Source: Bacteroidia bacterium (GTDB taxonomy: Bacteria; Bacteroidota; Bacteroidia; NS11-12g; UBA9320). Taken from it: 64,000 nt of DNA. Under the pieces are notes generated by a model, which saw only the letters and a program-made list of their open reading frames with translations, did no database searches and had not been told where the DNA came from. The stretch spans positions 91,168-155,167 of the forward strand of contig JADLGN010000015.1 of NCBI GenBank assembly GCA_020849295.1, read 5' to 3'. Of the stretch, positions 36,711-55,789 are shown in pieces. Numbering within the stretch: position 1 is the first letter of the stretch; every line of letters begins with the position of its first letter. The position numbers and the translations under genes were made by a program.

Positions 36711-36729
36711 TTTCTTGTTTATTAAGAAC

Positions 36730-36766: not shown

Positions 36767-36801
36767 ATAACAATTCTTTTTTTTACTAAATTGCACATAA
36801 T

Positions 36802-42750: not shown

Positions 42751-43914
42751 ATGAACAACATAGAGGAAATATTGTCATGGTGCGAAAAAACAGCTTTCGA
42801 CCTTAACTTTAATCATGCAAAACAATGGAAAAACAATGACAGTAAAAGGGTAATAGTAGGATATCTGCCAATTTATGTACCTCGTGAAATTATCCACGCT
42901 TCAAATGGTATAGCAGTAGGAATAATGGGCACGGGCGATCGTAAGCAAATTATAAAAGGTGACGCATATTATCAGTCGTATATATGCCATTTGCCAAGAG
43001 GAATCATTGAGTTAGCATTAGATAATAATTTAGAAGGTTTTGATGGTTTTCTATTTCCGGCAATTTGCGATTGTGTAAGAAATCTTTCAGGAATGTTCAA
43101 ATTATCAAAAAAAGGAAAATTTCAAAGATATTTTGATTATGCTCAAAACTTTGACCCATTTATTGGAGGCACTTTTTATAAACACGAAATGGAAAAAGTG
43201 CTGGACGATATATATAATGTAAATGGTATAAAGGCAACAAAAGAAAATTTAAACAATGCAATAAAATTATATAATATAAATCGCAGATTGATAGAAGAAA
43301 TATATGATATCAGACAAAAATATCCTTGGAGATTATCTGCTGTTGATACTTATCACTTACTTCGAGCAGGTATTTGCATTACTGTAGAAGAACACAATGA
43401 AATACTGCATAAAATACTTAATGTAATAAGAAATGAAAGAGGCGAAGCTATGGATAATATAAGGGTAGTAGTTTCTGGTTCATTTTGCGAACAACCGCCT
43501 GTAGGACTGATTAAGTCTATTGAAATGGCGGGTTGTTATATTGTTGATGATGACTTTATGCTTGGATCACGCTGGATACAAGGTGATATTGCCGATAATA
43601 CTGACGACCCACTTGGAGCAATTACTGATGCATATCTAAATCAAAGCACATTTTCATCATGCTATTACGATGTTGGAAATCCAAAAGGAAAAAGACTTGT
43701 AGAACTTGTAAAAAGGAGAGAAGCAGATGGTGTAATATTTTCGGCAGCAAGTTTTTGCGATCCGGCATTGTTAGACAGACCAGAAATGCAGAAAGAATGT
43801 GATGTTGCAGGCGTACCTCATATAAATTTCCAATATCACGAAAACACAGGACAGTTCAAAGTAATAAAAGAACAGGCAGGAACATTTTCTGATTCAATAA
43901 AACTTTGGGCATAA
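42751..43914 (+). CDS. 2-hydroxyacyl-CoA dehydratase / benzoyl-CoA reductase BcrC(gamma)-like iron-sulfur subunit (HGD-D family)
   Basis: The N-terminus RVIVGYLPIYVPREIIHASNG matches the family VGY.C.Y.P.E.I.AAG block. Conserved cysteines are AICDC, SGSFCEQ and ASFCDP. Confidence 0.75.
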   Translation: MNNIEEILSWCEKTAFDLNFNHAKQWKNNDSKRVIVGYLPIYVPREIIHASNGIAVGIMGTGDRKQIIKGDAYYQSYICHLPRGIIELALDNNLEGFDGFLFPAICDCVRNLSGMFKLSKKGKFQRYFDYAQNFDPFIGGTFYKHEMEKVLDDIYNVNGIKATKENLNNAIKLYNINRRLIEEIYDIRQKYPWRLSAVDTYHLLRAGICITVEEHNEILHKILNVIRNERGEAMDNIRVVVSGSFCEQPPVGLIKSIEMAGCYIVDDDFMLGSRWIQGDIADNTDDPLGAITDAYLNQSTFSSCYYDVGNPKGKRLVELVKRREADGVIFSAASFCDPALLDRPEMQKECDVAGVPHINFQYHENTGQFKVIKEQAGTFSDSIKLWA

Positions 43915-43954
43915 AATAAAGTAGTAGAAAAAATTAATTTTTAAAAAAAAAGCT

Positions 43955-45256
43955 ATGGCAAATCCAAAAGATGCAGTAAAAGAAAAGAGCATGATTATTC
44001 AAAAAGAAATGCTCGCAAAGCAATTTAACGACCTAAGTAAAGCAAGAGAAACAGGCAAAAAAGTATGTTATACATTCGTTCCGGGGAATTTAATAGAACT
44101 GATATTATCATTTGATATGCTTCCGGTATATCCTGAAATTAATGCATTACAATCGGGTATGAGAAAAAAATCAGCAGGATATATAAAAGATGCTGAGAAA
44201 ATGGGACATTCAGAAGATGTTTGCACTTATGTAAAATGCGATATTGGAATGATGCTAAACGGCAACATTGGACCTACAGGCGAAAAATTGCCAGACCCCG
44301 ATTTATTGCTTTTAAGTTACACAGGTTGTTTTACTTTTCTAAAATGGTTTGAAAACTTAAACCGTTTATATCCAAATGCTGAAATAGCAATGCTTCACAC
44401 TCCGTATCAAGAAGACGGACAAATTACTCAGGAGCAAATTGAATATATGATAAAGCAGCTAAAAGAAGATGTAATACCAAAATTTGAAAAAGTAACAGGT
44501 AAGAAATTTGATGAAGCAAAATTAAAAAAATTGTTAGATAACTCTGTGCAAGCAGAAGATTACTGGGTAAAAATTCTTCAACTTGCAAAAAATAAACCTT
44601 CGCCTATTGATGCATATTTTGCAGGAGTATATTATATGGGACCTATAAATACAGCCTTTAGAGGAAGTGAAGAGTGTCTTGAATATTACAAAGAACTATA
44701 TAAAGAAGTAAAAGAAAGAGCAGATCAAAAACTACTACCTGTAACACCGGAGGGAGAAATGAAACATGAAAGATTCAGACTAGTAGTAGAAGGACCACCA
44801 AATTGGACAAATTTCCGTGAATTTTGGAAAATATTTTATGATATGGGTGCTGTAATTGTAGCATCTACTTATACCAAGGTTGGTGGAGTTTATGATTTGG
44901 GCTATAGGCAAAATCCTGAGAAACCACTTGAAAGCCTTGCTACATATTGCATGGGATGCTATACAAATTTGAATTTACCGCAAAGGGTAGATTTAATTGA
45001 AAAATATGTAAAAGAATATCAGGCAGACGGATTTTTGATAAACTCAATAAAATCTTGTAATTCATTTTCGGCAGGGCAACTTATGATAATGCGTGAAATT
45101 GAACAAAGAACAGGAGTTCCGGTAGGATTTATTGAAAGCGACCTTGTTGACCCACGATATTTTTCTTATGCAAATATCAAAAACAGGCTCGAATCGTACT
45201 TCCAAATGCTTGAGCAACGTAAAATTATTTTATCACAAGAATCATTAACAGTTTAA
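43955..45256 (+). CDS. 2-hydroxyacyl-CoA dehydratase / BcrB(beta)-like subunit (HgdA-type)
   Basis: The motifs KKVCYTFVPGNLIELI and DVCTYVKCDIG are present. The protein is colinear with the paralogue at 49728..50948 (shared AIVASTY and ..IE[SG]DL.D.R blocks). Confidence 0.75.
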   Translation: MANPKDAVKEKSMIIQKEMLAKQFNDLSKARETGKKVCYTFVPGNLIELILSFDMLPVYPEINALQSGMRKKSAGYIKDAEKMGHSEDVCTYVKCDIGMMLNGNIGPTGEKLPDPDLLLLSYTGCFTFLKWFENLNRLYPNAEIAMLHTPYQEDGQITQEQIEYMIKQLKEDVIPKFEKVTGKKFDEAKLKKLLDNSVQAEDYWVKILQLAKNKPSPIDAYFAGVYYMGPINTAFRGSEECLEYYKELYKEVKERADQKLLPVTPEGEMKHERFRLVVEGPPNWTNFREFWKIFYDMGAVIVASTYTKVGGVYDLGYRQNPEKPLESLATYCMGCYTNLNLPQRVDLIEKYVKEYQADGFLINSIKSCNSFSAGQLMIMREIEQRTGVPVGFIESDLVDPRYFSYANIKNRLESYFQMLEQRKIILSQESLTV

Positions 45257-45261
45257 ATAAA

Positions 45262-46686
45262 ATGAGCAAATATTATCTTGGAGTTGACCTTGGCTCCACA
45301 ACATCAAAGTCAGTAATAATAAATGAACAAGACGAGATAATTGGAAGAGGAATTACAAATACTCGTGCAAATTACTCAGTAGCCGCTGATATAGCAAGGG
45401 ATGAAGCAACCTACAATGCAAGATTTTCAATATTAAAGAAAAATCTGGAAGACGAAATAGCTTCAAAGCCTGAATACAAAAAATATATTTCTGATTTAGA
45501 AAGCGTATTTCAATATGAGCAATTCAAAATAAAATTAGATAAACTTGGGGATGAGTTGGTAAAAACATGTAATAATTTTTTTAAAGATGATACTCAAAGA
45601 AATGAAATTTTAGTACATCTTAGAAATATTCGCAAAGCCTTTAAACCAAAGATTAAACATGATTATTTATATAATAATCTTGGAGAAAAAAATCAATTTT
45701 TCAGAGATATAGTTTCCGAAAAATATAATGAAGAAGTGAACAAACTCGAAATGGCATTATTCGAGCCATTAATGACGGTATGGGACAAAAGTATTTCGCC
45801 GGCAGAAAATGAAAGAATAAAATTTGATTTTAAAGAACTTGTTCATAAAGCAATGGAAGAATTAAAAGACAAATACAAGAATTTACCTGATACTGCAGCC
45901 GAAGGAGAGAGTATAAACTTTGACGCAGAGATGAATTTGCTTAAGGGAAATTTCGATCAGGTATCAGAAACTCTTCGTTCACACATTGACCATATTGCCG
46001 AACTTGAATTTCATATTGAAAACATGACAGGAACAGGCTATGGAAGAGCATTATTGCCATTTCCACAAGAATGTATCCGCTCAGAAATTTTGTGTCATGC
46101 ATTTGGAGCACATGCTGTTTTCCCTGATACAAGAACAGTTTTAGACATTGGAGGTCAGGATACAAAGGCAATTCAGGTAGATAAATACGGGCTTGTTACA
46201 TCATTTCAGATGAATGACCGCTGTGCGGCAGGCTGTGGAAGATATTTGGGATACATTGCAGATGAAATGAGCATTTCATTAAATGAATTAGGACCAATGG
46301 CAATGGAAGCACAAAAAGAAGTTAGTATTTGTTCTACATGTACAGTATTTGCCGGAGCAGAATTAAGAGAACTTACAAATCTTGGCGAAAAAAGAGAAGA
46401 TATTTTGGGAGGTTTACACAAAGCAATTATTATGCGTGCCATGTCGCTTATTGCACGTTCAGGAGGAGTCTTTAATGAATTTACATTTACCGGAGGAGTT
46501 GCAAGAAATCCGGCTGTTATAAAATATCTTACACAGCTTGTAAGAGATAATTACGGAAGCGATATAAAAATAAATATTCATACCGATTCTATATTTATGG
46601 GAGCCTTGGGAGGTGCAATGTTTGCCAGAAGAAATATTAATGTTGATTTGCCAAATGCCAAAAAAACACAAGAAGTAACACAATAA
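45262..46686 (+). CDS. BadF/BadG/BcrA/BcrD-type ATPase, large form (BcrA/alpha-like), with an internal K/E-rich helical insertion of about 200 aa
   Basis: Phosphate-1 is YYLGVDLGSTTSKSVII. Later blocks are TGTGYGR and DIGGQDTKAI. The cluster-ligand region is NDRCAAGCGRYLGY...ICSTCTVFAGAE. Confidence 0.75.
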   Translation: MSKYYLGVDLGSTTSKSVIINEQDEIIGRGITNTRANYSVAADIARDEATYNARFSILKKNLEDEIASKPEYKKYISDLESVFQYEQFKIKLDKLGDELVKTCNNFFKDDTQRNEILVHLRNIRKAFKPKIKHDYLYNNLGEKNQFFRDIVSEKYNEEVNKLEMALFEPLMTVWDKSISPAENERIKFDFKELVHKAMEELKDKYKNLPDTAAEGESINFDAEMNLLKGNFDQVSETLRSHIDHIAELEFHIENMTGTGYGRALLPFPQECIRSEILCHAFGAHAVFPDTRTVLDIGGQDTKAIQVDKYGLVTSFQMNDRCAAGCGRYLGYIADEMSISLNELGPMAMEAQKEVSICSTCTVFAGAELRELTNLGEKREDILGGLHKAIIMRAMSLIARSGGVFNEFTFTGGVARNPAVIKYLTQLVRDNYGSDIKINIHTDSIFMGALGGAMFARRNINVDLPNAKKTQEVTQ

Positions 46687-46701
46687 ATTAAAAAAAAAAT
46701 C

Positions 46702-47538
46702 ATGGAAAATTTTTATACTATGGGTATTGACGTAGGTTCTAATTTTATAAAATTAGTACTTATGGACTATTCAGATAATCCAAAATTATTAGATAAACAT
46801 ACTGAAAAAATAAGGAAACGCGACCCATCACAAGTTGCTGAAGAAATGACTCAAAATATGCTTGCCAAGCATAAATTGAAATATGAGGATATAGCTTATT
46901 TTGCTTCTACCGGAGAAGGAGATCTTGTAAAAAGAAAAAGAGGTCATTTTTATGGAATGACAACACATGCCAAAGGAGCACATTTTTTATATTCTGATGC
47001 AATAACTGTGGTAGATATGGGTGCACTTTATGTAAGAGCAATTAAAATATCTGATGATGCAAGAGTATATGATTATAAAATGACCGGACAATGTGCCTCA
47101 GGTTCGGGGCAGTTTGTTGAAAATATTTCACGATATCTAGGTCTGTCAATTGAAGAAGTTGGCGATGTTTCAATGCAATCAAAAAATCCAGAAGTTTCTT
47201 CAGGAATTTGTGCCGTACTTGCCGAAACTGACGTAATTAATATGGTTTCAAGAGGTATATCAACACCTGATATAATAAAGGGAATTCATATTTCAATTGC
47301 CAACAGAATACTTAAACTATTGAGTTCCCTTAAAGCAGAATCGCCTATAGTAGTTACAGGAGGAATGGCATTAAACAAAGGAATGATAGAAGCACTTGAA
47401 GAACAATTGCAGGAAATGGGAAAATCTTTCCAGATTAAATCTCATCCAGATGCAATATATGCAGGTGCTATAGGAGCAGCACTTTGGGGAGGATACAGAC
47501 ATATTAAGCTAAAAGAAAAGCAAGCAGTTCTTGCATAA
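46702..47538 (+). CDS. BadF/BadG/BcrA/BcrD-type ATPase, small form (BcrD/delta- or HgdC-like activase)
   Basis: Motifs are MGIDVGSNFIKLVLMD, TGQCASGSGQFVE, SSGICAVLAETD and VVTGGMALN. The length is 278 aa. Confidence 0.8.
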   Translation: MENFYTMGIDVGSNFIKLVLMDYSDNPKLLDKHTEKIRKRDPSQVAEEMTQNMLAKHKLKYEDIAYFASTGEGDLVKRKRGHFYGMTTHAKGAHFLYSDAITVVDMGALYVRAIKISDDARVYDYKMTGQCASGSGQFVENISRYLGLSIEEVGDVSMQSKNPEVSSGICAVLAETDVINMVSRGISTPDIIKGIHISIANRILKLLSSLKAESPIVVTGGMALNKGMIEALEEQLQEMGKSFQIKSHPDAIYAGAIGAALWGGYRHIKLKEKQAVLA

Positions 47539-47599: not shown

Positions 47600-49723
47600 A
47601 TGAGCGTACAAAATCAAACAATGAGTATTGAAACAAAAAAACATGAGTTGGATACTCTTTTTAAACCTAAATCAATAGCAATAATTGGAGCATCATCCAA
47701 AGAGCTTTCAATAGGAAATGTTATTATTAAAAATCTTGTTCATTTTAATTATACAGGGAAAATTTACCCAATAAACCCAAAAGAACCTGAAATAAGAGGA
47801 ATAAAAGCATATTCTACAATCTTTGAAGTCCCTGATGATATTGACCTAGCACACGTAATAATACCAAGCAAATTTGTGCCACAGATAATTGAGGATTGTG
47901 GAAAAAAGGGAATAAAATCAGTAATTATCAATTCTGCCGGTTTTAGCGAAATGGGTGATGAAGGTATGGCTTTACAAGAAGCATTTCTACAAAATGCAAA
48001 AAAATACGGAGTTAGAATTTTCGGACCAAATTGTCAGGGAATAATTAATTGCGACCCTGAGTATAATGCATATTGCGATTTTACATTTACATTTCCTAAT
48101 CCGGGCAGCATATCAATTGTAGCACTAAGCGGTGGTGTTGGTGCATTTATAATGCAAAGCCTTTTCGACCTTAATATAGGGATGAGAATGTATGCTTCTA
48201 ATGGTAATGCTTGCGATATTTCTATTTCTGAAGTTATAAAATACTACGGACAAGATGATGGAACTAAAGCAATTATTTTATATACCGAAGGTTTTCATAA
48301 ACCATTAGAATTTTTAAATACTGCAAAACTTGTTGCAAGAAAAAAACCAATTCTTGCAATGAAATCAGGAAGGACAGAAGCAGGAGCAAAAGCAGCAGCT
48401 TCACATACAGGAGCACTTGCAGGTATTGATATTTCTACTGAGTTAATATTTGAAAAAACAGGTGTGTTGTCATTCACAAATGAAGAAGAAATGTGTCAGG
48501 CAGCAATGGCTTTCTCTACACAACCAATTCCAAAGGGCAATAAAGTAGGTATAATTACAAATACAGGCGGACCTGCAGTAATTGCAACAGACGAACTAGT
48601 TAATTCAGGACTTGAGATTCCAGCTATATCAGCAAAAGCAGAAGAAATATTAAAAAATACATTGTTGCCTGAAGCCACAATAGGCAATCCGATTGATGTA
48701 GTTGCTACCGGCGGTGGAGTACATTTTAGAAGTGCACTTGATGTGCTGATGAATGAAAGTCAAATAGACAGTATTTTTATAAATTTTGTAACAGCACCAT
48801 TTACAGATACTGATGAGGTAGCAAGAAATATAGTAGAAGTAAATCAACTTAAGAAGAAACCAATAATTTGTAATTTTATGACAAATATGAGTTTTGAAAG
48901 ATTTCAAAAAACTGCCAAAATACTTCAGGATGGCGGTGTGCCATGTTATAGTTTTCCTACTACTGCAGCTAAAGCTCTTGGAGCATTATACAAATTTCAT
49001 AAAATTCAAAATAGAGAAATTGGCTTCCCTCAGCTTTTTAGGGATATAGACAAAAATACAGTTAAAGAAATTATTGAAAATTCAGCTATTAATGAATTTA
49101 TGTCTTCCGAGAAAGTTTTTAGTATTCTTAAAGCATACAATATTCCTATAGCAGACTGGGGAATAGCATCAAATATAGATACTGCCCATGAAATAGCATC
49201 AAAAATTTCATACCCAGTAGTAGTAAAAGCAGAGGCATCAGATATAATACACAAAAGCGATAAAGGAGGTGTGGCAGTAAATATTAAAAACCAAGCAGAA
49301 TTGATATCGACTATTGAAAATATGAAGAACAATTTTGATAATTCTGCTTTGAAATTTCTTATACAAAAATTTGAACCGGGAGGAAAAGAATTAATAATTG
49401 GAGTTACATCAAATGGAGATTTAGGGCATTTAATAATGTTTGGAATGGGAGGCATTTATGTAGAAATATTAAAAGATGTTGTTTTCAAATTAAGCCCCGT
49501 AACGCAAGTTGAAGCCGAAGAAATGCTATCAACAATTAAATCGTCAAAATTATTAGATGGAGTAAGAGGTCAACAAGGAATTGATAAAAAAAGAGTTATT
49601 GAAATAATTGAAAGGATATCTCAATTGGTAACAGATTTTCCTCAAATAAAAGAAATGGATTTAAATCCTGTAATGGCATTTTCAGATAGAGCTATTGCAG
49701 TTGATGCAAGAATTAAATTATAA
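47600..49723 (+). CDS. ADP-forming (NDP-forming) acyl-CoA synthetase with fused alpha and beta domains (CoA-binding + succinyl-CoA-synthetase-like + ATP-grasp)
   Basis: The N-terminal CoA-binding Rossmann region is SIAIIGASSKELSIGN. The CoA-ligase/flavodoxin-like middle contains a phosphohistidine loop (GAKAAASHTGALAG). The C-terminal ATP-grasp has YPVVVKAEASDIIHKSDKGGV. The length is 707 aa. Confidence 0.8.
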   Translation: MSVQNQTMSIETKKHELDTLFKPKSIAIIGASSKELSIGNVIIKNLVHFNYTGKIYPINPKEPEIRGIKAYSTIFEVPDDIDLAHVIIPSKFVPQIIEDCGKKGIKSVIINSAGFSEMGDEGMALQEAFLQNAKKYGVRIFGPNCQGIINCDPEYNAYCDFTFTFPNPGSISIVALSGGVGAFIMQSLFDLNIGMRMYASNGNACDISISEVIKYYGQDDGTKAIILYTEGFHKPLEFLNTAKLVARKKPILAMKSGRTEAGAKAAASHTGALAGIDISTELIFEKTGVLSFTNEEEMCQAAMAFSTQPIPKGNKVGIITNTGGPAVIATDELVNSGLEIPAISAKAEEILKNTLLPEATIGNPIDVVATGGGVHFRSALDVLMNESQIDSIFINFVTAPFTDTDEVARNIVEVNQLKKKPIICNFMTNMSFERFQKTAKILQDGGVPCYSFPTTAAKALGALYKFHKIQNREIGFPQLFRDIDKNTVKEIIENSAINEFMSSEKVFSILKAYNIPIADWGIASNIDTAHEIASKISYPVVVKAEASDIIHKSDKGGVAVNIKNQAELISTIENMKNNFDNSALKFLIQKFEPGGKELIIGVTSNGDLGHLIMFGMGGIYVEILKDVVFKLSPVTQVEAEEMLSTIKSSKLLDGVRGQQGIDKKRVIEIIERISQLVTDFPQIKEMDLNPVMAFSDRAIAVDARIKL

Positions 49724-49727
49724 AGAA

Positions 49728-50948
49728 ATGTATAAAATACAAAGTACAAAGGTGATGAAGGAAATAATGGGAAATTATTTCCTAGGTATGAAAGATAAAT
49801 CAAAAAAAATAGCATGGTGTACAAGCGTAGGACCAGCCGAACTTTTGCGTTCGTTTGGTTTTGAAGTACATTTTCCTGAAAATCATGGAGCATTGCTTGG
49901 TGCTACACGTACAGCAGGAGATTTAATACCCGAATCAGCAAAATTCGGTTATTCAAATGATATATGTTCTTATCTTACAGCCGATATAGGTTCATATCTG
50001 AAAAGTGAAACGCCACTTAAAGAACATTATGGTCTTGAAGGACCGCCCAAGCCCGATTTGATTGTTTATAACACAAACCAATGTAGAGAAGTACAGGATT
50101 GGTTTACATATTTTGGAAGAGAACTTAATGTGCCTGTTATCGGAATTTATCCACCAAGACATCTTGATGAAGTTACGGATGAAATAATAGAAGATGTTGC
50201 TACACAATTCAGAAAAATGATTCCGATATGCGAAGAAGTAAGCGGACAAAAATTTGATAATGATAAATTCAAAGCAACATTAAAACTAAGCAAAGAAGCA
50301 ACTGACTTATGGAAAAAAGTTCTTTATACTGCTACAAATACTCCGGCACCAATAAGCTTTTTTGATGCAACTATCCACATGGGACCTATAGTAGTTTTAC
50401 GCGGTACACAGCAAGCAAAAGACTATTATATTACATTGCTTAAAGAAATGGAAGAAAATGTAGAGAAAGGAATAGGATTTCTTGAAAAAGAAAAATGCCG
50501 ATTGTATTGGGATGGAATGCCAATTTGGGGCAAGTTGCGTTCATTATCTGACTTATTTGTTCAAAACAATACAGCAATAGTAGCTTCAACATATTGCAAT
50601 AGCTGGGTTTTTGATGCATTTGACGAAGAAAACCCATTTGAATCATCAGCTAAAGCATATACTGAAATTTTTATTAATAGAAGCGAAGAAGCTAAACAAA
50701 GACTTTTAACCGAGTTAATAGAAAAATTTAGGATAGATGGTGTGATTTTTCACGATGCTAAAACATGTGCAAACAATTCTAACTCAAGATTTGGAATGCC
50801 GCAAAGACTTACAGAATCAATAGGAATACCAACATTAATAATAGAAGGCGACCTATGTGATTTGAGATTTTATTCAGAAGGGCAAAGTATTACCAAAATT
50901 GAAACTTTTATTGAGCAAATTGAGAGTACAAAAATTTTAAGTAATTAA
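49728..50948 (+). CDS. Second BcrB/HgdA-type subunit, paralogous to 43955..45256. The ORF-track start at 49695 overlaps the upstream stop by 29 bp, so the ATG at 49728 (or 49755) is more likely the true start.
   Basis: KKIAWCTSVGPAELLRSFG and DICSYLTADIG align position-for-position with the 43955 protein. The blocks AIVASTY and TLIIEGDLCDLR are conserved. Confidence 0.7.
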   Translation: MYKIQSTKVMKEIMGNYFLGMKDKSKKIAWCTSVGPAELLRSFGFEVHFPENHGALLGATRTAGDLIPESAKFGYSNDICSYLTADIGSYLKSETPLKEHYGLEGPPKPDLIVYNTNQCREVQDWFTYFGRELNVPVIGIYPPRHLDEVTDEIIEDVATQFRKMIPICEEVSGQKFDNDKFKATLKLSKEATDLWKKVLYTATNTPAPISFFDATIHMGPIVVLRGTQQAKDYYITLLKEMEENVEKGIGFLEKEKCRLYWDGMPIWGKLRSLSDLFVQNNTAIVASTYCNSWVFDAFDEENPFESSAKAYTEIFINRSEEAKQRLLTELIEKFRIDGVIFHDAKTCANNSNSRFGMPQRLTESIGIPTLIIEGDLCDLRFYSEGQSITKIETFIEQIESTKILSN

Positions 50949-50960
50949 TATAATAAAGGT

Positions 50961-51416
50961 ATGGATACTGAAAACAAAAGTAAAGTTTATAAACTCACAG
51001 ACGGAAGTGAGGTAGATTCAAATCAAGTTGAAAAACTAATTCAGGACACATGCCATTACGTAAAATATGTTGTTATTAACCAAAATGATAAAAACGAAAA
51101 TGTAGCTTTTATTTTTCCCGATAAAAACCTTTACAACAATCCCGATTATCTTTTGGCACCTAATGACAATGAAGGTTGTTTTTGCCCACGAAACCTTGAT
51201 GAGCTTGGAAGATGTCTTACAGGGTGTATGAAAAAGGTTAATTTGAGTTTTGAAAATATTGAAGATAAATTTTCAAATGCAGTGATTTTATCAGGAGAAA
51301 ACGAAATAGAAAACGAAGTAGAAAAGTATAAGAATATTTTAAAAAATTCATTGGGGAATGAAATTTCAGATGATGAAGTATATTATATCAAAAACTTAAA
51401 GGAAAAAAAGAAGTAA
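50961..51416 (+). CDS. Hypothetical small cysteine-containing protein (C-x-C...C...C in EGCFCPRNLDELGRCLTGC)
   Basis: The 151-aa ORF is tightly packed between cluster genes (12 bp and 6 bp gaps). It has no signal peptide, and no family is recognised. Confidence 0.4.
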   Translation: MDTENKSKVYKLTDGSEVDSNQVEKLIQDTCHYVKYVVINQNDKNENVAFIFPDKNLYNNPDYLLAPNDNEGCFCPRNLDELGRCLTGCMKKVNLSFENIEDKFSNAVILSGENEIENEVEKYKNILKNSLGNEISDDEVYYIKNLKEKKK

Positions 51417-51422: not shown

Positions 51423-53273
51423 ATGAAAAAATCATCAAAATTAAAAGTTGGTATTGTAGGAATAGGTCCGGTTGGGATGATAATGGCTGTAAAACTAAAT
51501 GAGGCAGGTTGTGAAGTGGCACTTTGCGATAAAGATGAATTTAAAGTAAAAAAAGTAAGAGAAAACGGAATAGTACTTGAAAATATTTATAATTCAACTA
51601 CAAAGTTTGAACATATTTACAATTCTGTAACAGAGATGAGAAAACTTGATTTGGATTATCTTGTTTTTGCATTAAAATCATATCAAACACTTGGAGCAGC
51701 AAAAGAAGCAGAAATTCTCAATTCTGAAAAACTTACAGTAATTGCAGCTCAAAACGGTATAGATACAGAACAAATACTTGCATCAGTTTTCGGTGAAAAT
51801 AAAACACTGAGAATGGTTATAAATTATGCAGGAAATCTTACATCGCCCAATACAGTTAAAGTAACTTTTTTTACCCCACCCAACTATATAGGTTCTATAG
51901 ACGACAGCATAACCGAACAATCAAAAATATTTACATCATTACTTAATGAAGTAAATTTTGAAACAGTTAATCTCAATTCGTTTGAAATACTAAAACGTAC
52001 TTGGGAGAAAACTATTTTGAATGCATCGTTAAGTCCACTGTGTGGGGTAGGAAGACTAACTATGGCAGAAGCAATGTCTGACCCTGAAACAGTTGAACTA
52101 GTTGAGCAAATTATAAATGAGGGAATAGAAGTAGCAGAAAGAGAAAAAATACGTTTCTCAGACGATTTTTATCGAAAATGCCTGCAATATTTAAAAAAAG
52201 GTGGAGAGCATTTCCCATCATTAGCAATAGATTTAATTAATAACCGCCAGACAGAAATTGATTATTTCAACGGAAAAATTGTAGAATATGGGAAAAAACA
52301 TTATGTAAAAACCTCATTGAATTTAGCATTTACAAACATGGTAAAAGCTATGACTAATAAAAACGTAATGAACAGGTCAATTGCTTCAGATGCAGTTTTA
52401 AACAAGAAAATAGTAAGTAAAGGTTTAATAGAAAAAAATAATTCCTCATTATATTATAAAGAGCAAAATTGTTTTCTGGGGATTGACCTTGGCTCAGCAT
52501 ATACCAAGTTTACAGTTATAAATGCAAAAGGGAAACCCGTATTCAGGTACTTTGTTCACACAATGAACAAAGACAGAAATGCTATGAAAAATGTAATTCA
52601 GGCTATATATTCAACATTTAATATTAAATACAGTTGCGCTACAGGTTATGGCAGAAAACACTTTACTGATACAGATATTATTAAAACCGAAATAAACTGT
52701 GCAGCTGCAGGAGTTGCAGAATATCACGATGGTGAAAAAAACATAATAGATATCGGTGGCGAAGATATAAAGGTTATACATTGTAATAATGATAATCAGG
52801 TTGCAAATTTTTACATGAATGATAAGTGTGCTGCCGGTACAGGTGCATTTTTACAGGAAATATCAGAAAGAGCAGAAATTAAAATTGAAGATATGAGCAG
52901 CCTTGCTTCACATTCTGATTTCGACAAAGAATTAAACAGCTTTTGTACTGTTTTTGCAAAAACTGAAATTATGAATTGGGTTTTTGACGGAATGCCAATG
53001 CAAGATATTGCAAGAGGTATTTATATATCAATAGCCAATAAAGTAGCAAAAATGAGATTAATACCGGGTTTGCCAATTATTATGATTGGTGGTGTAATTG
53101 CGCATCATCCTTATATGAGTACAATACTAAGCCAGAAATTTAATAAGGATATTAAAACCATTGAACACCCTCAGTTTGTTGTGTCACTTGGTGCTGCTAT
53201 AATTGCAAAACAAACATGGGCAAACGCAAATGAAAAAATTGATTTAAATAAAGAGATTAAACTACCAGCATAA
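51423..53273 (+). CDS. Fusion protein: an N-terminal ketopantoate-reductase-like (ApbA/PanE family) NAD(P)-binding 2-oxoacid reductase domain joined to a C-terminal BadF/BcrA/HgdC-type ATPase (activase) domain
   Basis: N-terminus: KVGIVGIGPVGMIMAVKLNEAGCEVALCD (Rossmann GxGxxG). The ApbA-like middle and C-terminal helical domain carry SLAIDLINNRQTEIDYFNG (ApbA E/N substrate block). C-terminal half from about aa 345: CFLGIDLGSAYTKFTVI, DIGGEDIKVI, DKCAAGTGAFLQEISE, NSFCTVFAKTEI. Confidence 0.7.
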   Translation: MKKSSKLKVGIVGIGPVGMIMAVKLNEAGCEVALCDKDEFKVKKVRENGIVLENIYNSTTKFEHIYNSVTEMRKLDLDYLVFALKSYQTLGAAKEAEILNSEKLTVIAAQNGIDTEQILASVFGENKTLRMVINYAGNLTSPNTVKVTFFTPPNYIGSIDDSITEQSKIFTSLLNEVNFETVNLNSFEILKRTWEKTILNASLSPLCGVGRLTMAEAMSDPETVELVEQIINEGIEVAEREKIRFSDDFYRKCLQYLKKGGEHFPSLAIDLINNRQTEIDYFNGKIVEYGKKHYVKTSLNLAFTNMVKAMTNKNVMNRSIASDAVLNKKIVSKGLIEKNNSSLYYKEQNCFLGIDLGSAYTKFTVINAKGKPVFRYFVHTMNKDRNAMKNVIQAIYSTFNIKYSCATGYGRKHFTDTDIIKTEINCAAAGVAEYHDGEKNIIDIGGEDIKVIHCNNDNQVANFYMNDKCAAGTGAFLQEISERAEIKIEDMSSLASHSDFDKELNSFCTVFAKTEIMNWVFDGMPMQDIARGIYISIANKVAKMRLIPGLPIIMIGGVIAHHPYMSTILSQKFNKDIKTIEHPQFVVSLGAAIIAKQTWANANEKIDLNKEIKLPA

Positions 53274-53280: not shown

Positions 53281-54543
53281 ATGAGAGCATTTCACGACAA
53301 AGAAAAAGGTATAGGTATAATATTCGATGATATTTATTTTGTTAACGGAGCAAGAACTCCGTTTGGAAAATATTGCGGAACACTTGCAAATGTATCGCCT
53401 ACAGATTTAGGAATTTTTGCCAGTAAAGCAGCAATTAATAAAAGTAATATTTCAGCAGATAAAATTGACCAGGCAGTTATGGCAAATATTGGTCAGTCTT
53501 CAGGCGATGCATATTTTTTCCCTCGTCATGTTTCATTATTTGCAGGATTGCCGGTTACTGTACCTGCACTTATGGTTCAAAGAATATGTGCATCCGGATT
53601 TGAAACTATAATTACTTCTGCCGAGCAGATTACACTTGGCAAAGCCGATTCAACACTATGCTGCGGTGCAGAAAGTATGTCACTTTCACCAACCGTAAGT
53701 TTTGGCAACAGAATGGGTTATATGCTTGGTCGCCCTGTTTTTAAAGATATGCTTTGGGAAGCTTTAGACGATACCGCAGCAGGTTATCCAATGGGTTTTA
53801 CAGCAGAAAATATTGCAGTAAAGCACAATATTAGCAGGCAACAGTGTGACGAATATGCTCTAATATCTTTTAACAGAGCTATTGCAGCAAGAAACAAAGG
53901 ATTTTTTAATGAAGAAATTACACCTATCAATTCTACGGTATTTGAAGCAGATGGTTTAAAATCACGAAAAGTTAAACTAACTGGAGGAGTAAAAGATTTT
54001 AATATTGACGAACAAATAAGAGAAACCACATTAGAATCATTGTCAAAATTGCCAAATGTATTTAAAGAAGTAGGAGTACTGTCAGCTGGTAATTGCAGTG
54101 GCATTGTTGATGGAGCAGCAGCAGCAGTTGTAGCATCTGATAGTTTTGTAAAATCAAATAATTTAAAACCCCTTGCAAAAGTGGTAGCCGCTGCAACAAG
54201 TGCAATAGACCCTAAAGTAATGGGGCTGGGTCCGGTACCTGCTATTAAATATTTATTGGAAATTACAGGTTTAAAAATTGATGATATCGGATTGTTTGAG
54301 ATTAATGAAGCATTTTCATCACAGGTAATAGGCTGCGAAATAGAATTAGGACTTGATAGGAATAAACTTAATGTAAATGGTGGTGCAATTGCTATCGGAC
54401 ATCCGCTTGCAGCAAGCGGCTTAAGACTTTCGCTAACACTTATTAGAGAAATGAATCAAAAAAATATAAAATACGGAATTGCTTCTGCTTGTATAGGTGG
54501 CGGACAAGGTACAGCAATTCTTTTTGAAAATTTAAATAATTAA
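53281..54543 (+). CDS. Acetyl-CoA C-acyltransferase (thiolase)
   Basis: NGARTPFGKY with the active-site Cys in RICASGFETI, the motifs NEAFSSQV and GHPLAASG, and the C-terminal CIGGGQGTA are present. Confidence 0.9.
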   Translation: MRAFHDKEKGIGIIFDDIYFVNGARTPFGKYCGTLANVSPTDLGIFASKAAINKSNISADKIDQAVMANIGQSSGDAYFFPRHVSLFAGLPVTVPALMVQRICASGFETIITSAEQITLGKADSTLCCGAESMSLSPTVSFGNRMGYMLGRPVFKDMLWEALDDTAAGYPMGFTAENIAVKHNISRQQCDEYALISFNRAIAARNKGFFNEEITPINSTVFEADGLKSRKVKLTGGVKDFNIDEQIRETTLESLSKLPNVFKEVGVLSAGNCSGIVDGAAAAVVASDSFVKSNNLKPLAKVVAAATSAIDPKVMGLGPVPAIKYLLEITGLKIDDIGLFEINEAFSSQVIGCEIELGLDRNKLNVNGGAIAIGHPLAASGLRLSLTLIREMNQKNIKYGIASACIGGGQGTAILFENLNN

Positions 54544-54547: not shown

Positions 54548-54727
54548 ATGGAAATCACAGATAAAATTTTAAATCAATTTGCAAAATCTGGCAAAGCACT
54601 AAAAGGTGGCGAAATAGCCGATCTTACAGGTATTGATAAAAAACTAGTAGATAAAACCTTAAAGAAATTGATGAGTGAAGATAAAATATATTCGCCTGTA
54701 AGGTGCTATTACGATTTAAAAAAATAA
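54548..54727 (+). CDS. Unannotated 59-aa ORF (below the 60-aa cutoff of the ORF track) with winged-helix/HTH-like sequence: MEITDKILNQFAKSGKALKGGEIADLTGIDKKLVDKTLKKLMSEDKIYSPVRCYYDLKK
   Basis: Its ATG lies 4 bp after the thiolase stop, and its stop lies 3 bp before the next ATG, which is operon-tight packing. An HTH-like segment (GEIADLTGIDKKLVDKTLKKL) is followed by a beta-hairpin-like tail. Confidence 0.45.
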   Translation: MEITDKILNQFAKSGKALKGGEIADLTGIDKKLVDKTLKKLMSEDKIYSPVRCYYDLKK

Positions 54728-54730: not shown

Positions 54731-55789
54731 ATGCAAAATACTAAAATGTATAAATGGGAAATGATAGAAACTGACAAAGATTTTGTCAGAAAAGAATGTG
54801 ATATTCCTGAAATTGAAGAAAATGAAGCAATAGTAAAAGTTGCAGGATGTGGTGTGTGTCATACAGATTTAAGTTTTTGGCATTTTGGAGTACAAACCAA
54901 AAAATCTTTACCCCTTACTTTAGGACACGAAATAAGCGGAACAGTTGTAGTAGGAGATAGTAGTATTATTGGAAAAAATGTAATTATACCTGCTGTATTG
55001 CCTTGTGGCAACTGCGAATTGTGTAATAATGGAAGAAGTAATATTTGTCGCAATCAACTTATGCCCGGTAATGATTTTGACGGAGGATTTGCATCTCATA
55101 TCAAAGTACCATCAAAATATTTGTGTGAAGTAGATAATGAAATATTGAAAAAATACCCATTAGAAACACTTTCTGTAATTGCTGATGCTATTTCTACACC
55201 TTATCAGGTTGTAAAAAAATCAGAATTGAAAGAAGGAGATTTTGCTATTGTGATTGGAGTGGGCGGTGTAGGAATTTACGGGGCACAAATAGCAAAAATA
55301 TTTGGAGCAAAAGTTCTTGCAATGGATATTAGTGATGAAAAACTAAATGTTGCAAAAGAAAATGGAACAGATGCAGTTTTGAACATAAAAGGAATGGATA
55401 TAAAAACTGTAAAAGAAAATGTTAAAAATATTGCTAAAGAACTTAATGCACCAAAAAATAGTTGGAAAATTTATGAAATATCGGGAACCAAAGCAGGCCA
55501 AGAACTCGCTTTTAATCTTATAACTTTTGCTTCTACATTATCAGTTGTAGGTTTTACAATGGATAAAGTAGATGTAAGACTTAGTAATCTTATGGCATTT
55601 GATGCAAAATTGATTGGCACTTGGGGATGTAAGCCAGAACTATACCCTGAAGTTGTTAAATTGGTATCAGACGGTAAATTAAAAATTGAACCTTTTATTC
55701 AAACATTTCCCTTGTCTCAAATTAATGAAGTATTTAAAAACACATTAGAACATAAATATTCAAAGCGCTCAGTACTTATTCCCGATTAA
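54731..55789 (+). CDS. Zinc-dependent medium-chain dehydrogenase/reductase (ADH_N + Rossmann), a candidate beta-hydroxyacyl-CoA / 6-hydroxycyclohexenoyl-CoA-type dehydrogenase (Had-like)
   Basis: Catalytic Zn ligands are present (GCGVCHTDL, GHE in TLGHEISG). Structural Zn cysteines are CGNCELCNNGRSNIC. The Rossmann motif is VIGVGGVGIYG. Confidence 0.85.
   Translation: MQNTKMYKWEMIETDKDFVRKECDIPEIEENEAIVKVAGCGVCHTDLSFWHFGVQTKKSLPLTLGHEISGTVVVGDSSIIGKNVIIPAVLPCGNCELCNNGRSNICRNQLMPGNDFDGGFASHIKVPSKYLCEVDNEILKKYPLETLSVIADAISTPYQVVKKSELKEGDFAIVIGVGGVGIYGAQIAKIFGAKVLAMDISDEKLNVAKENGTDAVLNIKGMDIKTVKENVKNIAKELNAPKNSWKIYEISGTKAGQELAFNLITFASTLSVVGFTMDKVDVRLSNLMAFDAKLIGTWGCKPELYPEVVKLVSDGKLKIEPFIQTFPLSQINEVFKNTLEHKYSKRSVLIPD

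What the first reader, a model, noticed from the sequence alone, without database searches (positions are those of the whole stretch)
47600..49723. Fused ADP-forming acyl-CoA synthetase embedded between the reductase genes
A 707-aa single-chain NDP-forming acyl-CoA synthetase (CoA-binding Rossmann, CoA-ligase, ATP-grasp) sits between the delta-like ATPase and the second beta-type subunit. Aromatic acid pathways normally use AMP-forming ligases. ADP-forming enzymes run reversibly and in fermenters conserve ATP from acyl-CoA (acetyl-CoA, or aryl-acetyl-CoA in archaeal ACD II). Its position suggests either ATP-neutral activation of the substrate acid or substrate-level phosphorylation from the pathway end product. 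That matters because the reductase itself would consume ATP. The His in GAKAAASHTGALAG is the expected phosphohistidine.
Basis: partly seen in the sequence, partly recalled or inferred. Interest (0 to 1): 0.6.

Follow-up and report, generated by a model that had tools for sequence, protein, structure and literature searches.

The report
ADP-forming CoA ligase paired with dehydratase
The gene is a real ADP-forming acyl-CoA synthetase, but across three bacterial phyla its constant partner is a phenyllactate-dehydratase-like enzyme rather than the ring reductase, so it most likely activates an aromatic 2-hydroxy acid on an uncharacterised, ATP-saving route to benzoyl-CoA.

Summary
Window 47600..49723 (+) encodes a 707-aa single-chain NDP-forming acyl-CoA synthetase (ACD) with all domains and both catalytic histidines (H269, H551). 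It lies between bcrD and a HadB-like gene in a tightly packed 13-gene benzoyl-CoA operon of an uncultured Bacteroidota.

It is not a housekeeping acetate enzyme. No NCBIfam equivalog cut-off is reached, and the best solved relative is only 32% identical. In an NJ tree it falls in a separate clade.

That clade's most constant neighbour is not the reductase. In non-redundant loci with at least 4 kb on both sides:
- a single HGD-D subunit (hgdX) is nearby in 44/47;
- its activase in 41/47;
- a PanE-type 2-oxoacid reductase in 40/47;
- a thiolase in 32/47;
- a benzoyl-CoA reductase in only 27/47;
- ACDs below 40% identity have none of these (0/23).

The same module occurs in cultured Desulfonema magnum. 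Desulfococcus multivorans has a look-alike phenylpyruvate/phenylacetate-induced cluster with an AMP-forming ligase in the ACD's position.

Best reading (about 0.45): an ADP-forming 2-hydroxyacid (aryl-lactate)-CoA ligase that feeds the dehydratase, then cinnamoyl-CoA, benzoyl-CoA and the reductase. Rivals are a benzoate-type entry ligase and ATP-yielding thioester cleavage. All functional assignments are inferred; nothing has been assayed.

The parts
47600..49723 (+). ACD: single-chain NDP(ADP)-forming acyl-CoA synthetase, 707 aa, the finding itself. Phosphohistidine H269 is at nt 48404-48406 and the ATP-grasp His H551 at nt 49250-49252.
   Evidence: Pfam domains. PDB alignments. AF2 model and Foldseek. 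His conservation 123/125.
49728..50948 (+). hgdX: a single HadB-like HGD-D subunit (406 aa from the ATG; the mechanical ORF starts at TTG 49695). Putative homomeric 2-hydroxyacyl-CoA (aryl-lactyl-CoA) dehydratase.
   Evidence: PF06050, 214 bits. HadB model 224.9 bits, above BcrB at 156.8. PDB HadB 3o3m_A, 176.8 bits. Three Cys aligned with Cys of HadB and MbdO. Near the ACD in 44/47 well-flanked loci.
50961..51416 (+). u151: conserved 151-aa protein of unknown family with five conserved Cys. Possibly derived from the C-terminal subdomain of an AMP-forming ligase.
   Evidence: No Pfam or NCBIfam hit. 24 orthologues share the motif GCFCPR..L.ELG.CL.GC. hhalign against AMP-ligase C-termini gives P=0.003. 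The AF2 single-sequence model is poor.
51423..53273 (+). PanE::activase fusion (616 aa). N-terminal ketopantoate-reductase-family 2-oxoacid reductase (aa 8-312) and C-terminal BcrAD_BadFG activase (aa 352-595).
   Evidence: Pfam ApbA, ApbA_C and BcrAD_BadFG. TIGR00241 at 171 bits against 125.4, TIGR00745 at 161.6 against 141.35. PDB HadI 4eht and HgdC 1hux are the best hits for the activase part. The two halves are separate genes in other phyla.
53281..54543 (+). Thiolase (420 aa). Candidate for thiolysis of benzoylacetyl-CoA and/or 3-oxopimelyl-CoA.
   Evidence: TIGR01930, 397 bits against 240.55. Co-occurs with the ACD in 32/47 loci.
54548..54727 (+). 59-aa winged-helix-like small ORF that fills the thl-had gap.
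   Evidence: The orthologue in L001 carries weak GntR/HTH_5 hits.
42751..43914 (+). bcrC, class I (Thauera-type) benzoyl-CoA reductase subunit C.
   Evidence: TIGR02263, 452.8 bits against 421.15.
43955..45256 (+). bcrB.
   Evidence: TIGR02260, 674.5 bits against 486.55.
45262..46686 (+). bcrA-like ATPase (474 aa).
   Evidence: TIGR02259, 438.5 bits, below the cut-off of 578. Pfam BcrAD_BadFG, 221 bits.
46702..47538 (+). bcrD.
   Evidence: TIGR02261, 320.6 bits against 312.85.
54731..55789 (+). [quoted passage not shown]
   Evidence: TIGR03201, 461.2 bits against 338.65.
55800..56882 (+). oah, 6-oxocyclohex-1-ene-1-carbonyl-CoA hydrolase.
   Evidence: TIGR03200, 588.7 bits against 464.45.
56882..57655 (+). 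dch-like enoyl-CoA hydratase.
   Evidence: TIGR03189, 221.4 bits, below the cut-off of 292.5.

Best explanation
The ORF encodes a catalytically complete ADP-forming acyl-CoA synthetase. It belongs to a distinct clade of that superfamily and works as the CoA ligase of a four-part module: a PanE-type 2-oxoacid reductase, the ACD, the single-subunit HadB-like radical dehydratase hgdX, and hgdX's ATP-dependent activase.

Proposed sequence of reactions:
1. An aromatic 2-oxo acid (phenylpyruvate or 4-hydroxyphenylpyruvate, from Phe/Tyr) is reduced to the 2-hydroxy acid by the PanE domain.
2. The ACD converts ATP + CoA + aryl-lactate into aryl-lactyl-CoA + ADP + Pi. The phosphoryl group passes from ATP to H551, then to phospho-H269 on the swinging loop, then to an acyl-phosphate, which CoA attacks.
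3. The activated hgdX dehydrates the thioester to cinnamoyl-CoA (or 4-coumaroyl-CoA).
4. A hydratase, a dehydrogenase and the operon's thiolase shorten it to benzoyl-CoA + acetyl-CoA.
5. BcrCBAD, Dch, Had and Oah, encoded in the same operon, dearomatise and open the ring.

In this scheme the ACD replaces the CoA-transferase of the fermentative Had/Fld/Hgd systems; no conserved CoA-transferase is seen next to the module. It also occupies the position held by the AMP-forming ligase FadD4 in Desulfococcus multivorans, and it costs one ATP equivalent instead of two.

What is shown: enzyme class, catalytic residues, clade membership and gene linkage. What is inferred: substrate, direction, and the dehydratase activity of hgdX.
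For: **Enzyme class.** See the observation check.

**Not a known specificity.** The best NCBIfam equivalogs all fall below their cut-offs: 4-hydroxybutyrate-CoA ligase 542.6 against 1300, AcCoA-syn-alpha 472.7 against 567.15, archaeal acetate-CoA ligase 464.4 against 1200.

**A separate clade.** In an NJ tree of 125 sequences, every ACD that is 40-100% identical to the query forms one clade, apart from the Nmar_0206 group and the generic ACDs. Thirty-seven clade-specific positions were found, including the insertion Y158-C159, A175 (Ser in all others), G179, T322, A369/T370 and N395-T398. These flank S177, E230 and D366. By the alignment, those three correspond to S411, E462 and D602', which PMC13018889 names as interacting with the phosphohistidine in the acyl/CoA site. 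This is consistent with an altered acyl pocket.

**Linkage** (non-redundant loci with at least 4 kb on both sides). For ACDs at least 40% identical: hgdX 44/47, activase 41/47, PanE 40/47, thiolase 32/47, BCR 27/47. For ACDs below 40% identical: 0/23 for every one of these. The reciprocal test agrees: 5 of 5 loci fetched through hgdX homologues carry the ACD directly after hgdX. These include cultured Desulfonema magnum CP061800, where ACT-PanE-activase-hgdX-ACD stands alone.

**Robust to rearrangement.** The set survives changes in gene order and fusion or fission across Bacteroidia, Ignavibacteria, Desulfobacterota and Sedimentisphaerales.

**Shared history.** Within Bacteroidia, ACD divergence tracks hgdX (rho 0.48), thl (0.69) and oah (0.77), but not bcrCBAD (rho about 0).

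**Link to aromatic substrates.**
[quoted passage not shown] Proteins of this cluster are formed specifically with phenylacetate and phenylpyruvate, and the strain grows on phenyllactate (PMC5109826).
- Metagenomic loci have the same order with the ACD in FadD4's position.
- IorAB, PaaK-like ligases, aminotransferases and 4-hydroxybenzoyl-CoA-reductase-like Mo enzymes recur nearby.

**Only ligase in view.** No AMP-binding-signature ORF occurs in 35 Bacteroidia-type loci totalling 651 kb, including the whole window.

**Operon packing.** The ACD stop and the hgdX ATG are 4 nt apart.
Against: - There is no biochemical evidence for any member of the clade. The substrate rests on neighbourhood alone.
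- All characterised 2-hydroxyacyl-CoA dehydratases are alpha-beta heterodimers (own knowledge). hgdX has no beta partner, so its activity is itself unproven.
- Three well-flanked loci lack hgdX (L055, L072, L087). In L055 the ACD closes a Bzd-type reductase operon, the position where Azoarcus has benzoate-CoA ligase (own knowledge).
- The Desulfobacterota operons carry one or two further AMP-forming ligases, so which ligase serves the dehydratase there is open.
- The window has no dedicated cinnamoyl-CoA hydratase or dehydrogenase beyond Dch and Had, and no aminotransferase.
- Homology of the D. multivorans proteins to hgdX and PanE was inferred from annotation, size and order, not from sequence.
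- The tree is NJ without bootstrap support.
- Two of the 47 loci were fetched through hgdX; without them the count is 42/45.
Confidence: 0.45

Rival explanations
1. Entry ligase for a simple aromatic acid. The ACD would be an ADP-forming benzoate (or 4-hydroxybenzoate, or cinnamate) CoA ligase that feeds the reductase directly, and hgdX, PanE and the activase would do something else.
For: It is the only recognisable acid-CoA ligase in the window and in 651 kb of Bacteroidia-type loci. All 19 well-flanked loci of the close clade carry BCR. In L055 the ACD ends a Bzd-type operon that has no hgdX. 4-Hydroxybenzoyl-CoA-reductase-like genes are frequent neighbours. An NDP-forming ligase for aromatic acids is already known: FCS1 feruloyl-CoA synthetase (PMC6388921).
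Against: Across the family, BCR is nearby in only 27/47 loci, against 44/47 for hgdX. In D. magnum and other Desulfobacterota the ACD sits in an ACT-PanE-activase-hgdX-ACD unit with no BCR within 8-10 kb. D. multivorans, which has the look-alike cluster, has a separate AMP-forming BclA. ACD divergence is uncorrelated with bcrCBAD.
Confidence: 0.25
2. Substrate-level phosphorylation. The enzyme would run towards acid + ATP, using acetyl-CoA released by the thiolase, or arylacetyl-CoA as archaeal ACD II does, to recover ATP spent by the reductase.
For: ACD reactions are reversible, and archaeal ACDs work in this direction (own knowledge). A thiolase is a frequent neighbour (32/47). IorAB lies next to the module in several loci. 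OFOR homologues are often found near ADP-forming ligases (PMC13285125).
Against: No acetate-CoA ligase equivalog cut-off is reached. The clade is separate from generic ACDs and has changed residues around the acyl site. The module occurs in Desulfobacteraceae, which oxidise substrates completely to CO2 (PMC11887813 abstract). The Bacteroidia operons have no Ior. This reading does not explain the near-obligate link to hgdX.
Confidence: 0.12
3. A reversed hydroxyglutarate route downstream of ring cleavage. Glutaryl-CoA would go to glutaconyl-CoA, then by hgdX-catalysed hydration to 2-hydroxyglutaryl-CoA, then by the ACD (yielding ATP) to 2-hydroxyglutarate, then by PanE to 2-oxoglutarate. The 2-oxoglutarate could re-reduce ferredoxin for the reductase.
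For: The module holds exactly the enzyme types of the hydroxyglutarate pathway. A thiolase is linked. OFOR genes lie near some loci.
Against: No glutaryl-CoA dehydrogenase was noticed in the modules, although this was not searched systematically. The module also occurs without BCR or the lower-pathway genes. The ACT, Ior, PaaK and aminotransferase neighbours, and the D. multivorans induction by phenylpyruvate, point to aromatic 2-oxo acids. Oxidation of 2-hydroxyglutarate with NAD(P)+ is unfavourable (own knowledge).
Confidence: 0.05
4. A housekeeping acetyl-CoA synthetase (ADP-forming) that merely happens to lie in the operon.
For: Database names are 'acetate--CoA ligase family protein'.
Against: The position is conserved in every locus of 24 species representatives that is long enough to show it. 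The protein belongs to a separate clade. It is 4 nt from the next gene. Generic ACDs show none of these neighbours (0/23).
Confidence: 0.02

Closest known systems
[quoted passage not shown]
   Same: Single chain with the same subdomain order. It is the best sequence match (441 bits) and the best structural match (TM 0.82/0.92). Both catalytic His align (H256 to H269, H535 to H551). It works in the acid-activating direction and on a hydroxy acid.
   Different: Only 32% identity. The equivalog model scores 542.6 against a cut-off of 1300. It falls in a different clade. It is an archaeal CO2-fixation enzyme with no dehydratase neighbour.
Archaeal ACD I / ACD II and Ca. Korarchaeum ACD1 (PDB 4XYL series; PH0766, 2CSU)
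   Same: Same superfamily and same mechanism, with a swinging phosphohistidine loop and a second His in the ATP-grasp domain. ACD II accepts aryl acetates (own knowledge).
   Different: [quoted passage not shown] TIGR02717 is below its cut-off.
FCS1 (and FerA of Sphingobium SYK-6), NDP-forming feruloyl-CoA synthetases
   Same: Identical three-domain architecture (CoA_binding_2, Succ_CoA_lig, ATP-grasp_5) with the conserved His (PMC6388921). They show that this superfamily can activate aromatic acids in bacterial catabolism.
   Different: They belong to aerobic lignin-monomer pathways of Sphingomonadales. Their sequence relationship to this clade could not be tested because no sequences were available. 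They act with a hydratase/lyase, not a radical dehydratase (own knowledge).
2-Hydroxyacyl-CoA dehydratase systems HadA/HadBC/HadI, FldA/FldBC/FldI (+FldH) and Hgd
   Same: The same pathway logic: a 2-oxoacid reductase, CoA activation, a [4Fe-4S] HGD-D dehydratase and an ATP-dependent activase. hgdX is closest to HadB, and the activase domain to HadI and HgdC.
   Different: Here CoA activation is by an ADP-forming ligase instead of a CoA-transferase. The dehydratase has a single subunit type instead of alpha-beta. The reductase is of the PanE family, not the D-2-hydroxyacid dehydrogenase family. The product appears to be oxidised to benzoyl-CoA rather than reduced and excreted.
Desulfococcus multivorans phenylacetate/phenylpyruvate cluster Dmul_24830-24900 (PMC5109826)
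   Same: Same order: IorAB, ACT, a PanE-sized 'phenylpyruvate reductase', an activator, a single 'R-phenyllactate dehydratase alpha', then ligases, with a TRAP transporter and a 396-aa thiolase nearby. Induction is substrate-specific.
   Different: An AMP-forming ligase (FadD4, 518 aa) occupies the place of the ACD. The authors left the route to benzoyl-CoA unresolved. Homology to the window's genes is inferred from annotation and size, not sequence.
DddX (PDB 7CM9) and PatZ (9IT0)
   Same: Single-chain members of the ACD superfamily in bacteria. They show that the scaffold has been recruited for non-acetate chemistry.
   Different: 24-27% identity. DddX also cleaves its CoA ester, and PatZ carries a GNAT domain. 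Neither feature is present here.

Membership tests
NDP-forming acyl-CoA synthetase (ACD) superfamily | CoA-binding Rossmann domain, CoA-ligase flavodoxin domains and an ATP-grasp domain | tested here: met
   Four Pfam domains above their gathering scores. AF2 model matches 8wzu_A at TM 0.82/0.92.
NDP-forming acyl-CoA synthetase (ACD) superfamily | Phosphohistidine on the swinging loop (His-alpha) | tested here: met
   H269 aligns with Nmar_0206 H256. Conserved in 123/125 sequences.
NDP-forming acyl-CoA synthetase (ACD) superfamily | Second catalytic His in the ATP-grasp domain (His-beta) | tested here: met
   H551 aligns with Nmar_0206 H535. Conserved in 123/125 sequences.
NDP-forming acyl-CoA synthetase (ACD) superfamily | Products are ADP + Pi, through an acyl-phosphate intermediate | not testable with these tools
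   Requires an enzyme assay.
Acetate-CoA ligase (ADP-forming), housekeeping ACD | Reaches the curated equivalog score | tested here: not met
   TIGR02717 scores 472.7 against 567.15. NF045494 scores 464.4 against 1200.
Acetate-CoA ligase (ADP-forming), housekeeping ACD | Clusters with generic ACDs that occur outside specialised gene clusters | tested here: not met
   Separate clade in the NJ tree. Generic ACDs below 40% identity have none of the neighbours (0/23).
4-Hydroxybutyrate-CoA ligase (ADP-forming) | Reaches the equivalog score of NF045493 | tested here: not met
   542.6 against 1300.
NDP-forming feruloyl-CoA synthetase (FerA/FCS1) | Sequence clustering with FerA/FCS1 | not tested
   No FerA or FCS1 sequence was available. 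Only the shared architecture is known.
2-Hydroxyacyl-CoA dehydratase system (Had/Fld/Hgd type), for the module | HGD-D component with the conserved cluster-binding Cys | tested here: met
   PF06050, 214 bits. C80, C119 and C346 align with Cys of HadB and MbdO. That these are the cluster ligands is own knowledge.
2-Hydroxyacyl-CoA dehydratase system (Had/Fld/Hgd type), for the module | Heterodimeric alpha + beta dehydratase | tested here: not met
   Only one HGD-D gene belongs to the module in any phylum.
2-Hydroxyacyl-CoA dehydratase system (Had/Fld/Hgd type), for the module | Dedicated ATP-dependent activase | tested here: met
   TIGR00241, 171 bits against 125.4. PDB HadI and HgdC are the best hits.
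2-Hydroxyacyl-CoA dehydratase system (Had/Fld/Hgd type), for the module | CoA-transferase supplies the 2-hydroxyacyl-CoA | tested here: not met
   No CoA-transferase is conserved in the module; the ACD (or an AMP ligase in D. multivorans) is there instead. CoA-transferase-family genes appear only sporadically: an acetyl-CoA hydrolase/transferase in L059 and CoA_trans genes about 9 kb upstream in L137.
Class I benzoyl-CoA reductase, Thauera type (the neighbours) | Four subunits reach the equivalog scores | tested here: inconclusive
   BcrC, BcrB and BcrD are above their cut-offs. BcrA scores 438.5 against 578.

The most novel reading that the evidence does not exclude
The clade would be the first ADP-forming 2-hydroxyacid (aryl-lactate)-CoA ligase. 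Together with a homomeric HadB-like radical dehydratase, its activase and a PanE-type reductase, it would form an undescribed, ATP-economical peripheral route from aromatic 2-oxo and 2-hydroxy acids to cinnamoyl-CoA and benzoyl-CoA. With IorAB running in reverse, the route could also start from arylacetates. It would be spread over Bacteroidota, Desulfobacterota and Planctomycetota. It could explain how sulfate reducers that lack the Pad enzymes turn phenylacetate and phenylpyruvate into benzoyl-CoA.
Probability: 0.35. Interest if true: 0.75.

Novelty: new variant of a known kind. Interest (0 to 1): 0.6.

Why it matters
If this reading is right, the finding matters in four ways.
1. [quoted passage not shown]
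2. It gives a concrete, testable proposal for a step left open in anaerobic aromatic catabolism. PMC5109826 states that the route from phenylacetyl-CoA or phenylpyruvate to benzoyl-CoA in Desulfococcus is unclear.
3. It shows how organisms that must pay ATP for ring reduction save one ATP equivalent at the activation step.
4. It assigns anaerobic aromatic amino-acid or phenylpropanoid degradation to widespread uncultured freshwater, groundwater and peat Bacteroidota.

A cultured host, Desulfonema magnum, makes the proposal experimentally accessible.

Tried and rejected
- **Acyl-pocket comparison from the literature.** The ACD1 structure paper (PMC4747732) and the FerA paper (PMC124110) are not held. 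The Nmar_0206, Nmar_1309 and DddX papers name only a few site residues. Only residues next in sequence to known site residues could be compared.
- **Phylogeny against all characterised ACDs.** Only sequences recoverable from PDB alignments (Nmar_0206, DddX) could be added. FerA, PauA and ACD II were unavailable.
- **Promoter and terminator scans, and the Bacteroidetes -7 motif TAnnTTTG.** Counts were not above chance (86 against 81±10; 9 against 8±3; 110 against 121±11). They give no evidence for or against an internal promoter.
- **u151.** There are no family hits. The hmmsearch against AMP ligases and ACT proteins was insignificant and hhalign only suggestive. The AF2 single-sequence model was too poor for a fold search (pLDDT 44).
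- **Literature searches** for an ADP-forming ligase in a benzoyl-CoA reductase cluster, or one paired with a 2-hydroxyacyl-CoA dehydratase, found nothing relevant.
- **Direct sequence comparison with the D. multivorans proteins** was not possible.
- **The housekeeping-ACD reading** was considered and rejected on synteny and clade membership.


Full report
**1. The observation**

The window has about 31% G+C. It carries SusC/SusD, T9SS-sorted proteins and BamG, so it comes from a Bacteroidota.

On the + strand, 13 genes run from 42751 to 57655 with almost no spacing: bcrC, bcrB, bcrA, bcrD, the ACD (47600..49723), hgdX, u151, PanE::activase, a thiolase, a 59-aa HTH-like ORF, had, oah and dch.

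The ACD is 707 aa. It has CoA_binding_2, Succ_CoA_lig, Ligase_CoA_2 and ATP-grasp_5 domains. An AlphaFold2 model built on 60 homologues has pLDDT 88.8 and pTM 0.87. [quoted passage not shown] The next matches are DddX, PatZ, PH0766 and Ca. Korarchaeum ACD1.

H269, in GAKAAASHTGALAG, aligns with the swinging-loop phosphohistidine H256 of Nmar_0206. H551, in IIHKSDKGGV, aligns with its ATP-site H535. Each is present in 123 of 125 aligned relatives.

**2. It is not a known specificity**

No NCBIfam equivalog cut-off is reached:

| Model | Score (bits) | Cut-off (bits) |
|---|---|---|
| 4-hydroxybutyrate-CoA ligase | 542.6 | 1300 |
| AcCoA-syn-alpha | 472.7 | 567.15 |
| archaeal acetate-CoA ligase | 464.4 | 1200 |
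| 3-hydroxypropionate-CoA ligase | 441.4 | 1300 |

More than 100 close homologues (68-85% identity) exist; every one that carries a source name is from a Bacteroidota metagenome bin. Among GTDB species representatives there is a sharp gap. Twenty-four Bacteroidota MAGs have homologues at 60-82% identity; everything else is at or below 36% apart from two short partial matches.

**3. Synteny**

Every one of those Bacteroidota loci that is long enough shows bcrCBAD-ACD-hgdX-u151-PanE::activase, usually followed by thl-had-oah-dch. The exception is the divergent L028.

L028 (ACD 60% identical) has a Bzd-type reductase instead; BzdN, BzdO and BzdQ are above their equivalog cut-offs. After it come ACD, hgdX, PanE, a class I/II aminotransferase, a second PanE, then OFOR and Mo-enzyme genes.

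A search with the L028 protein revealed a large sister group of 692-aa proteins in Ignavibacteria, Kapabacteria and a Sedimentisphaerales bin. Their contexts differ:
- L053 (Ignavibacterium sp.): activase, hgdX, ACD, PanE, a 4-hydroxybenzoyl-CoA-reductase-like Mo enzyme, had, oah, dch.
- L054 (Sedimentisphaerales): a Mo enzyme, hgdX, activase and ACD, with no reductase within 10 kb.
- L055 (Kapabacteria): a Bzd-like operon ending in the ACD, with no hgdX.

**4. Quantifying the linkage**

A metagenome scan added 80 loci whose ACDs are 35-87% identical to the query. All loci were annotated by tblastn with a reference set and made non-redundant at 95% identity. Only loci with at least 4 kb on both sides of the ACD were counted.

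| Neighbour | ACD at least 40% identical | ACD below 40% identical |
|---|---|---|
| hgdX | 44/47 | 0/23 |
| activase | 41/47 | 0/23 |
| PanE | 40/47 | 0/23 |
| thiolase | 32/47 | 0/23 |
| BCR (either type) | 27/47 | 0/23 |

Two of the 47 loci had been fetched through hgdX; without them the hgdX count is 42/45.

An NJ tree places all hgdX-linked ACDs in one clade, apart from the Nmar_0206 group and the generic ACDs (no bootstrap).

The reciprocal test agrees. Five loci fetched through hgdX homologues all have the ACD immediately after hgdX, in the operon DctPQM-ACT-PanE-activase-hgdX-ACD-AMP ligase-thiolase. One of the five is cultured Desulfonema magnum, where ACT-PanE-activase-hgdX-ACD stands alone.

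Gene order is shuffled in other lineages, for example bcrCBAD-ACD-PanE-had-oah-dch-hgdX-activase-thl. PanE and the activase are fused only in Bacteroidia. The gene set nevertheless stays together.

Within Bacteroidia, ACD divergence from the query correlates with that of hgdX (rho 0.48), thl (0.69) and oah (0.77). It does not correlate with bcrCBAD (rho about 0), which falls into two discrete identity classes. This is a crude measure, because all identities are to one reference and the loci are related.

**5. What the module is**

- hgdX is closest to HadB among solved structures (176.8 bits, against 122.6 for MbdO and 82.4 for BzdO). It keeps three Cys that align with Cys in both HadB and MbdO.
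- The activase domain is closest to HadI and HgdC.
- The PanE domain belongs to the ketopantoate-reductase family of 2-oxoacid reductases.

A reductase, an activase and a dehydratase are three of the four parts of a Buckel-type 2-hydroxyacyl-CoA dehydratase pathway. The missing part is the enzyme that makes the 2-hydroxyacyl-CoA. No CoA-transferase is conserved in the module, and the ACD is always there.

**6. The link to aromatic substrates**

[quoted passage not shown] It reports that proteins encoded in the two adjacent clusters are formed specifically with phenylacetate and phenylpyruvate, and that the strain grows on phenyllactate. It states that the conversion to benzoyl-CoA is unclear (PMC5109826).

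The metagenomic Desulfobacterota-type loci have the same order and gene sizes, with the 692-aa ACD in the position of FadD4. IorAB and PaaK-like ligases sit directly upstream in several of them.

Aminotransferases (L005, L028, L075, L112) and 4-hydroxybenzoyl-CoA-reductase-like Mo enzymes (best model TIGR03194, 951 bits against 994.55) are recurrent neighbours. That would fit Tyr-derived 4-hydroxy analogues.

**7. Mechanism proposed**

An arylpyruvate is reduced by PanE to an aryl-lactate. The ACD activates it through ATP, phospho-His551, phospho-His269 and an acyl-phosphate that is attacked by CoA, releasing ADP + Pi. hgdX, activated by one-electron transfer from the activase, eliminates water to give cinnamoyl-CoA. 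Hydration, oxidation and thiolysis give benzoyl-CoA and acetyl-CoA. BcrCBAD, Dch, Had and Oah then dearomatise and open the ring.

A ligase is expected here rather than a transferase. The CoA ester is carried on into complete degradation, so no acyl-CoA product is left to act as CoA donor (inference). An ADP-forming ligase costs one ATP equivalent less than an AMP-forming one. That is relevant where class I reductase already hydrolyses ATP (established knowledge).

Clade-specific residues flank S177, E230 and D366: the Y158-C159 insertion, A175 in place of the otherwise invariant Ser, G179, T322, A369/T370 and N395-T398. By the alignment these three correspond to S411, E462 and D602', which the Nmar_1309 paper describes as interacting with the phosphohistidine in the acyl/CoA site. 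This fits an altered acyl pocket but does not identify the substrate.

**8. Rivals**

- **Benzoate-type entry ligase.** This keeps real weight. In the window and in 651 kb of Bacteroidia-type loci, no AMP-binding-signature ORF is present. All close-clade loci have BCR. L055 shows the ACD with a Bzd operon and no hgdX. NDP-forming aromatic-acid ligases are known (FCS1).
- **ATP-yielding cleavage of acetyl- or arylacetyl-CoA.** This is possible in principle, but it explains neither the link to hgdX nor the module's presence in complete-oxidising sulfate reducers.
- **Reversed hydroxyglutarate route.** This is chemically neat but has the least support.

**9. Transcription**

Consensus scans are uninformative. 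The 61-nt gap before the ACD and the 4-nt gap after it, together with the conserved order, argue for co-transcription. That remains an inference.

**10. Verdict**

The ORF is a genuine, pathway-embedded ADP-forming acyl-CoA synthetase of an uncharacterised clade. Its constant partner is a phenyllactate-dehydratase-like module, not the reductase. The specific substrate and the ATP-conservation option do not follow from the evidence.

Noticed in passing
window 50961..51416 (+): u151 is a 151-aa protein with no family hit. It is conserved after hgdX in Bacteroidia only, except in L005, L029 and L106, where it lies before the ACD. It has five conserved Cys in TCHYV ... GCFCPR..L.ELG.CL.GC. Its N-terminal part aligns weakly, in the right register, with the start of the C-terminal subdomain of AMP-forming ligases (hhalign P=0.003). 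It may derive from the AMP ligase that lies in the same operon as the dehydratase gene in Desulfobacterota (directly after it in D. multivorans).
   Followed up: partly
window 51423..53273 (+): A PanE-type 2-oxoacid reductase is fused to a dehydratase activase in one 616-aa protein. In Ignavibacteria, Desulfobacterota and Sedimentisphaerales the two are separate adjacent genes. This is a Rosetta-stone style link between the reductase and the radical enzyme.
   Followed up: partly
window 49695..49727: The mechanical ORF for hgdX starts at a TTG that overlaps the ACD by 29 nt. The orthologous genes called in L001 and L004 are 406 aa and start shortly after the ACD stop, which matches the ATG at 49728, 4 nt after the ACD stop. 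That spacing suggests translational coupling.
   Followed up: yes
window 54548..54727 (+): A conserved 59-aa ORF fills the only sizeable gap in the operon, between thl and had. It is about 60% identical to a 59-aa ORF in L001 that has weak GntR/HTH_5 hits. It may be a small regulator.
   Followed up: partly
window 42751..47538 against loci L001-L030: The bcrCBAD block occurs in two discrete identity classes relative to the window (about 60-72% and about 70-95%). These classes are uncorrelated with the divergence of the ACD-hgdX-thl-oah block. The reductase genes appear to have been exchanged independently, so the operon is mosaic.
   Followed up: partly
window 45262..46686 (+): BcrA is 474 aa and scores below its equivalog cut-off (438.5 against 578). 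The 271-position Pfam ATPase profile is spread over residues 6-455, which implies a large insertion.
   Followed up: no
window 49030..49455 (-): A 141-aa antisense ORF lies entirely inside the ACD gene. It is probably not a gene.
   Followed up: no
window 32135..38625, 13461..15509 and 25564..27645: SusC/SusD followed by an M2 (angiotensin-converting-enzyme-like) peptidase, plus a prolyl oligopeptidase and an S41 protease, suggest a peptide-scavenging lifestyle. That would supply aromatic amino acids.
   Followed up: no
window 2900..8413 (-), 8497..9381 (-), 10610..12631 (-), 60492..62744 (+): Several large T9SS-sorted proteins are present: an 1837-aa PKD-repeat protein with CHU_C, and others with Por_Secre_tail. 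They are unrelated to the finding.
   Followed up: no
L053 13279..16982; L054 2852..6584; L001, L005, L028 flanks: Xanthine-dehydrogenase-family Mo enzymes recur next to the module. Their best model is 4-hydroxybenzoyl-CoA reductase alpha, just under its cut-off (951 against 994.55). In L053 the gamma and alpha subunits are fused.
   Followed up: partly
L054 12130..19761: In a Sedimentisphaerales bin the hgdX-activase-ACD trio lies beside a glycyl-radical enzyme with its activating enzyme, a CitMHS transporter and a PaaK-like ligase. No benzoyl-CoA reductase is within 10 kb.
   Followed up: no
L077 979..3132 and 9962..12100: Two ACD paralogues lie in one locus. One is 34% identical to the query (generic type) and the other 59% (hgdX-linked).
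   Followed up: no
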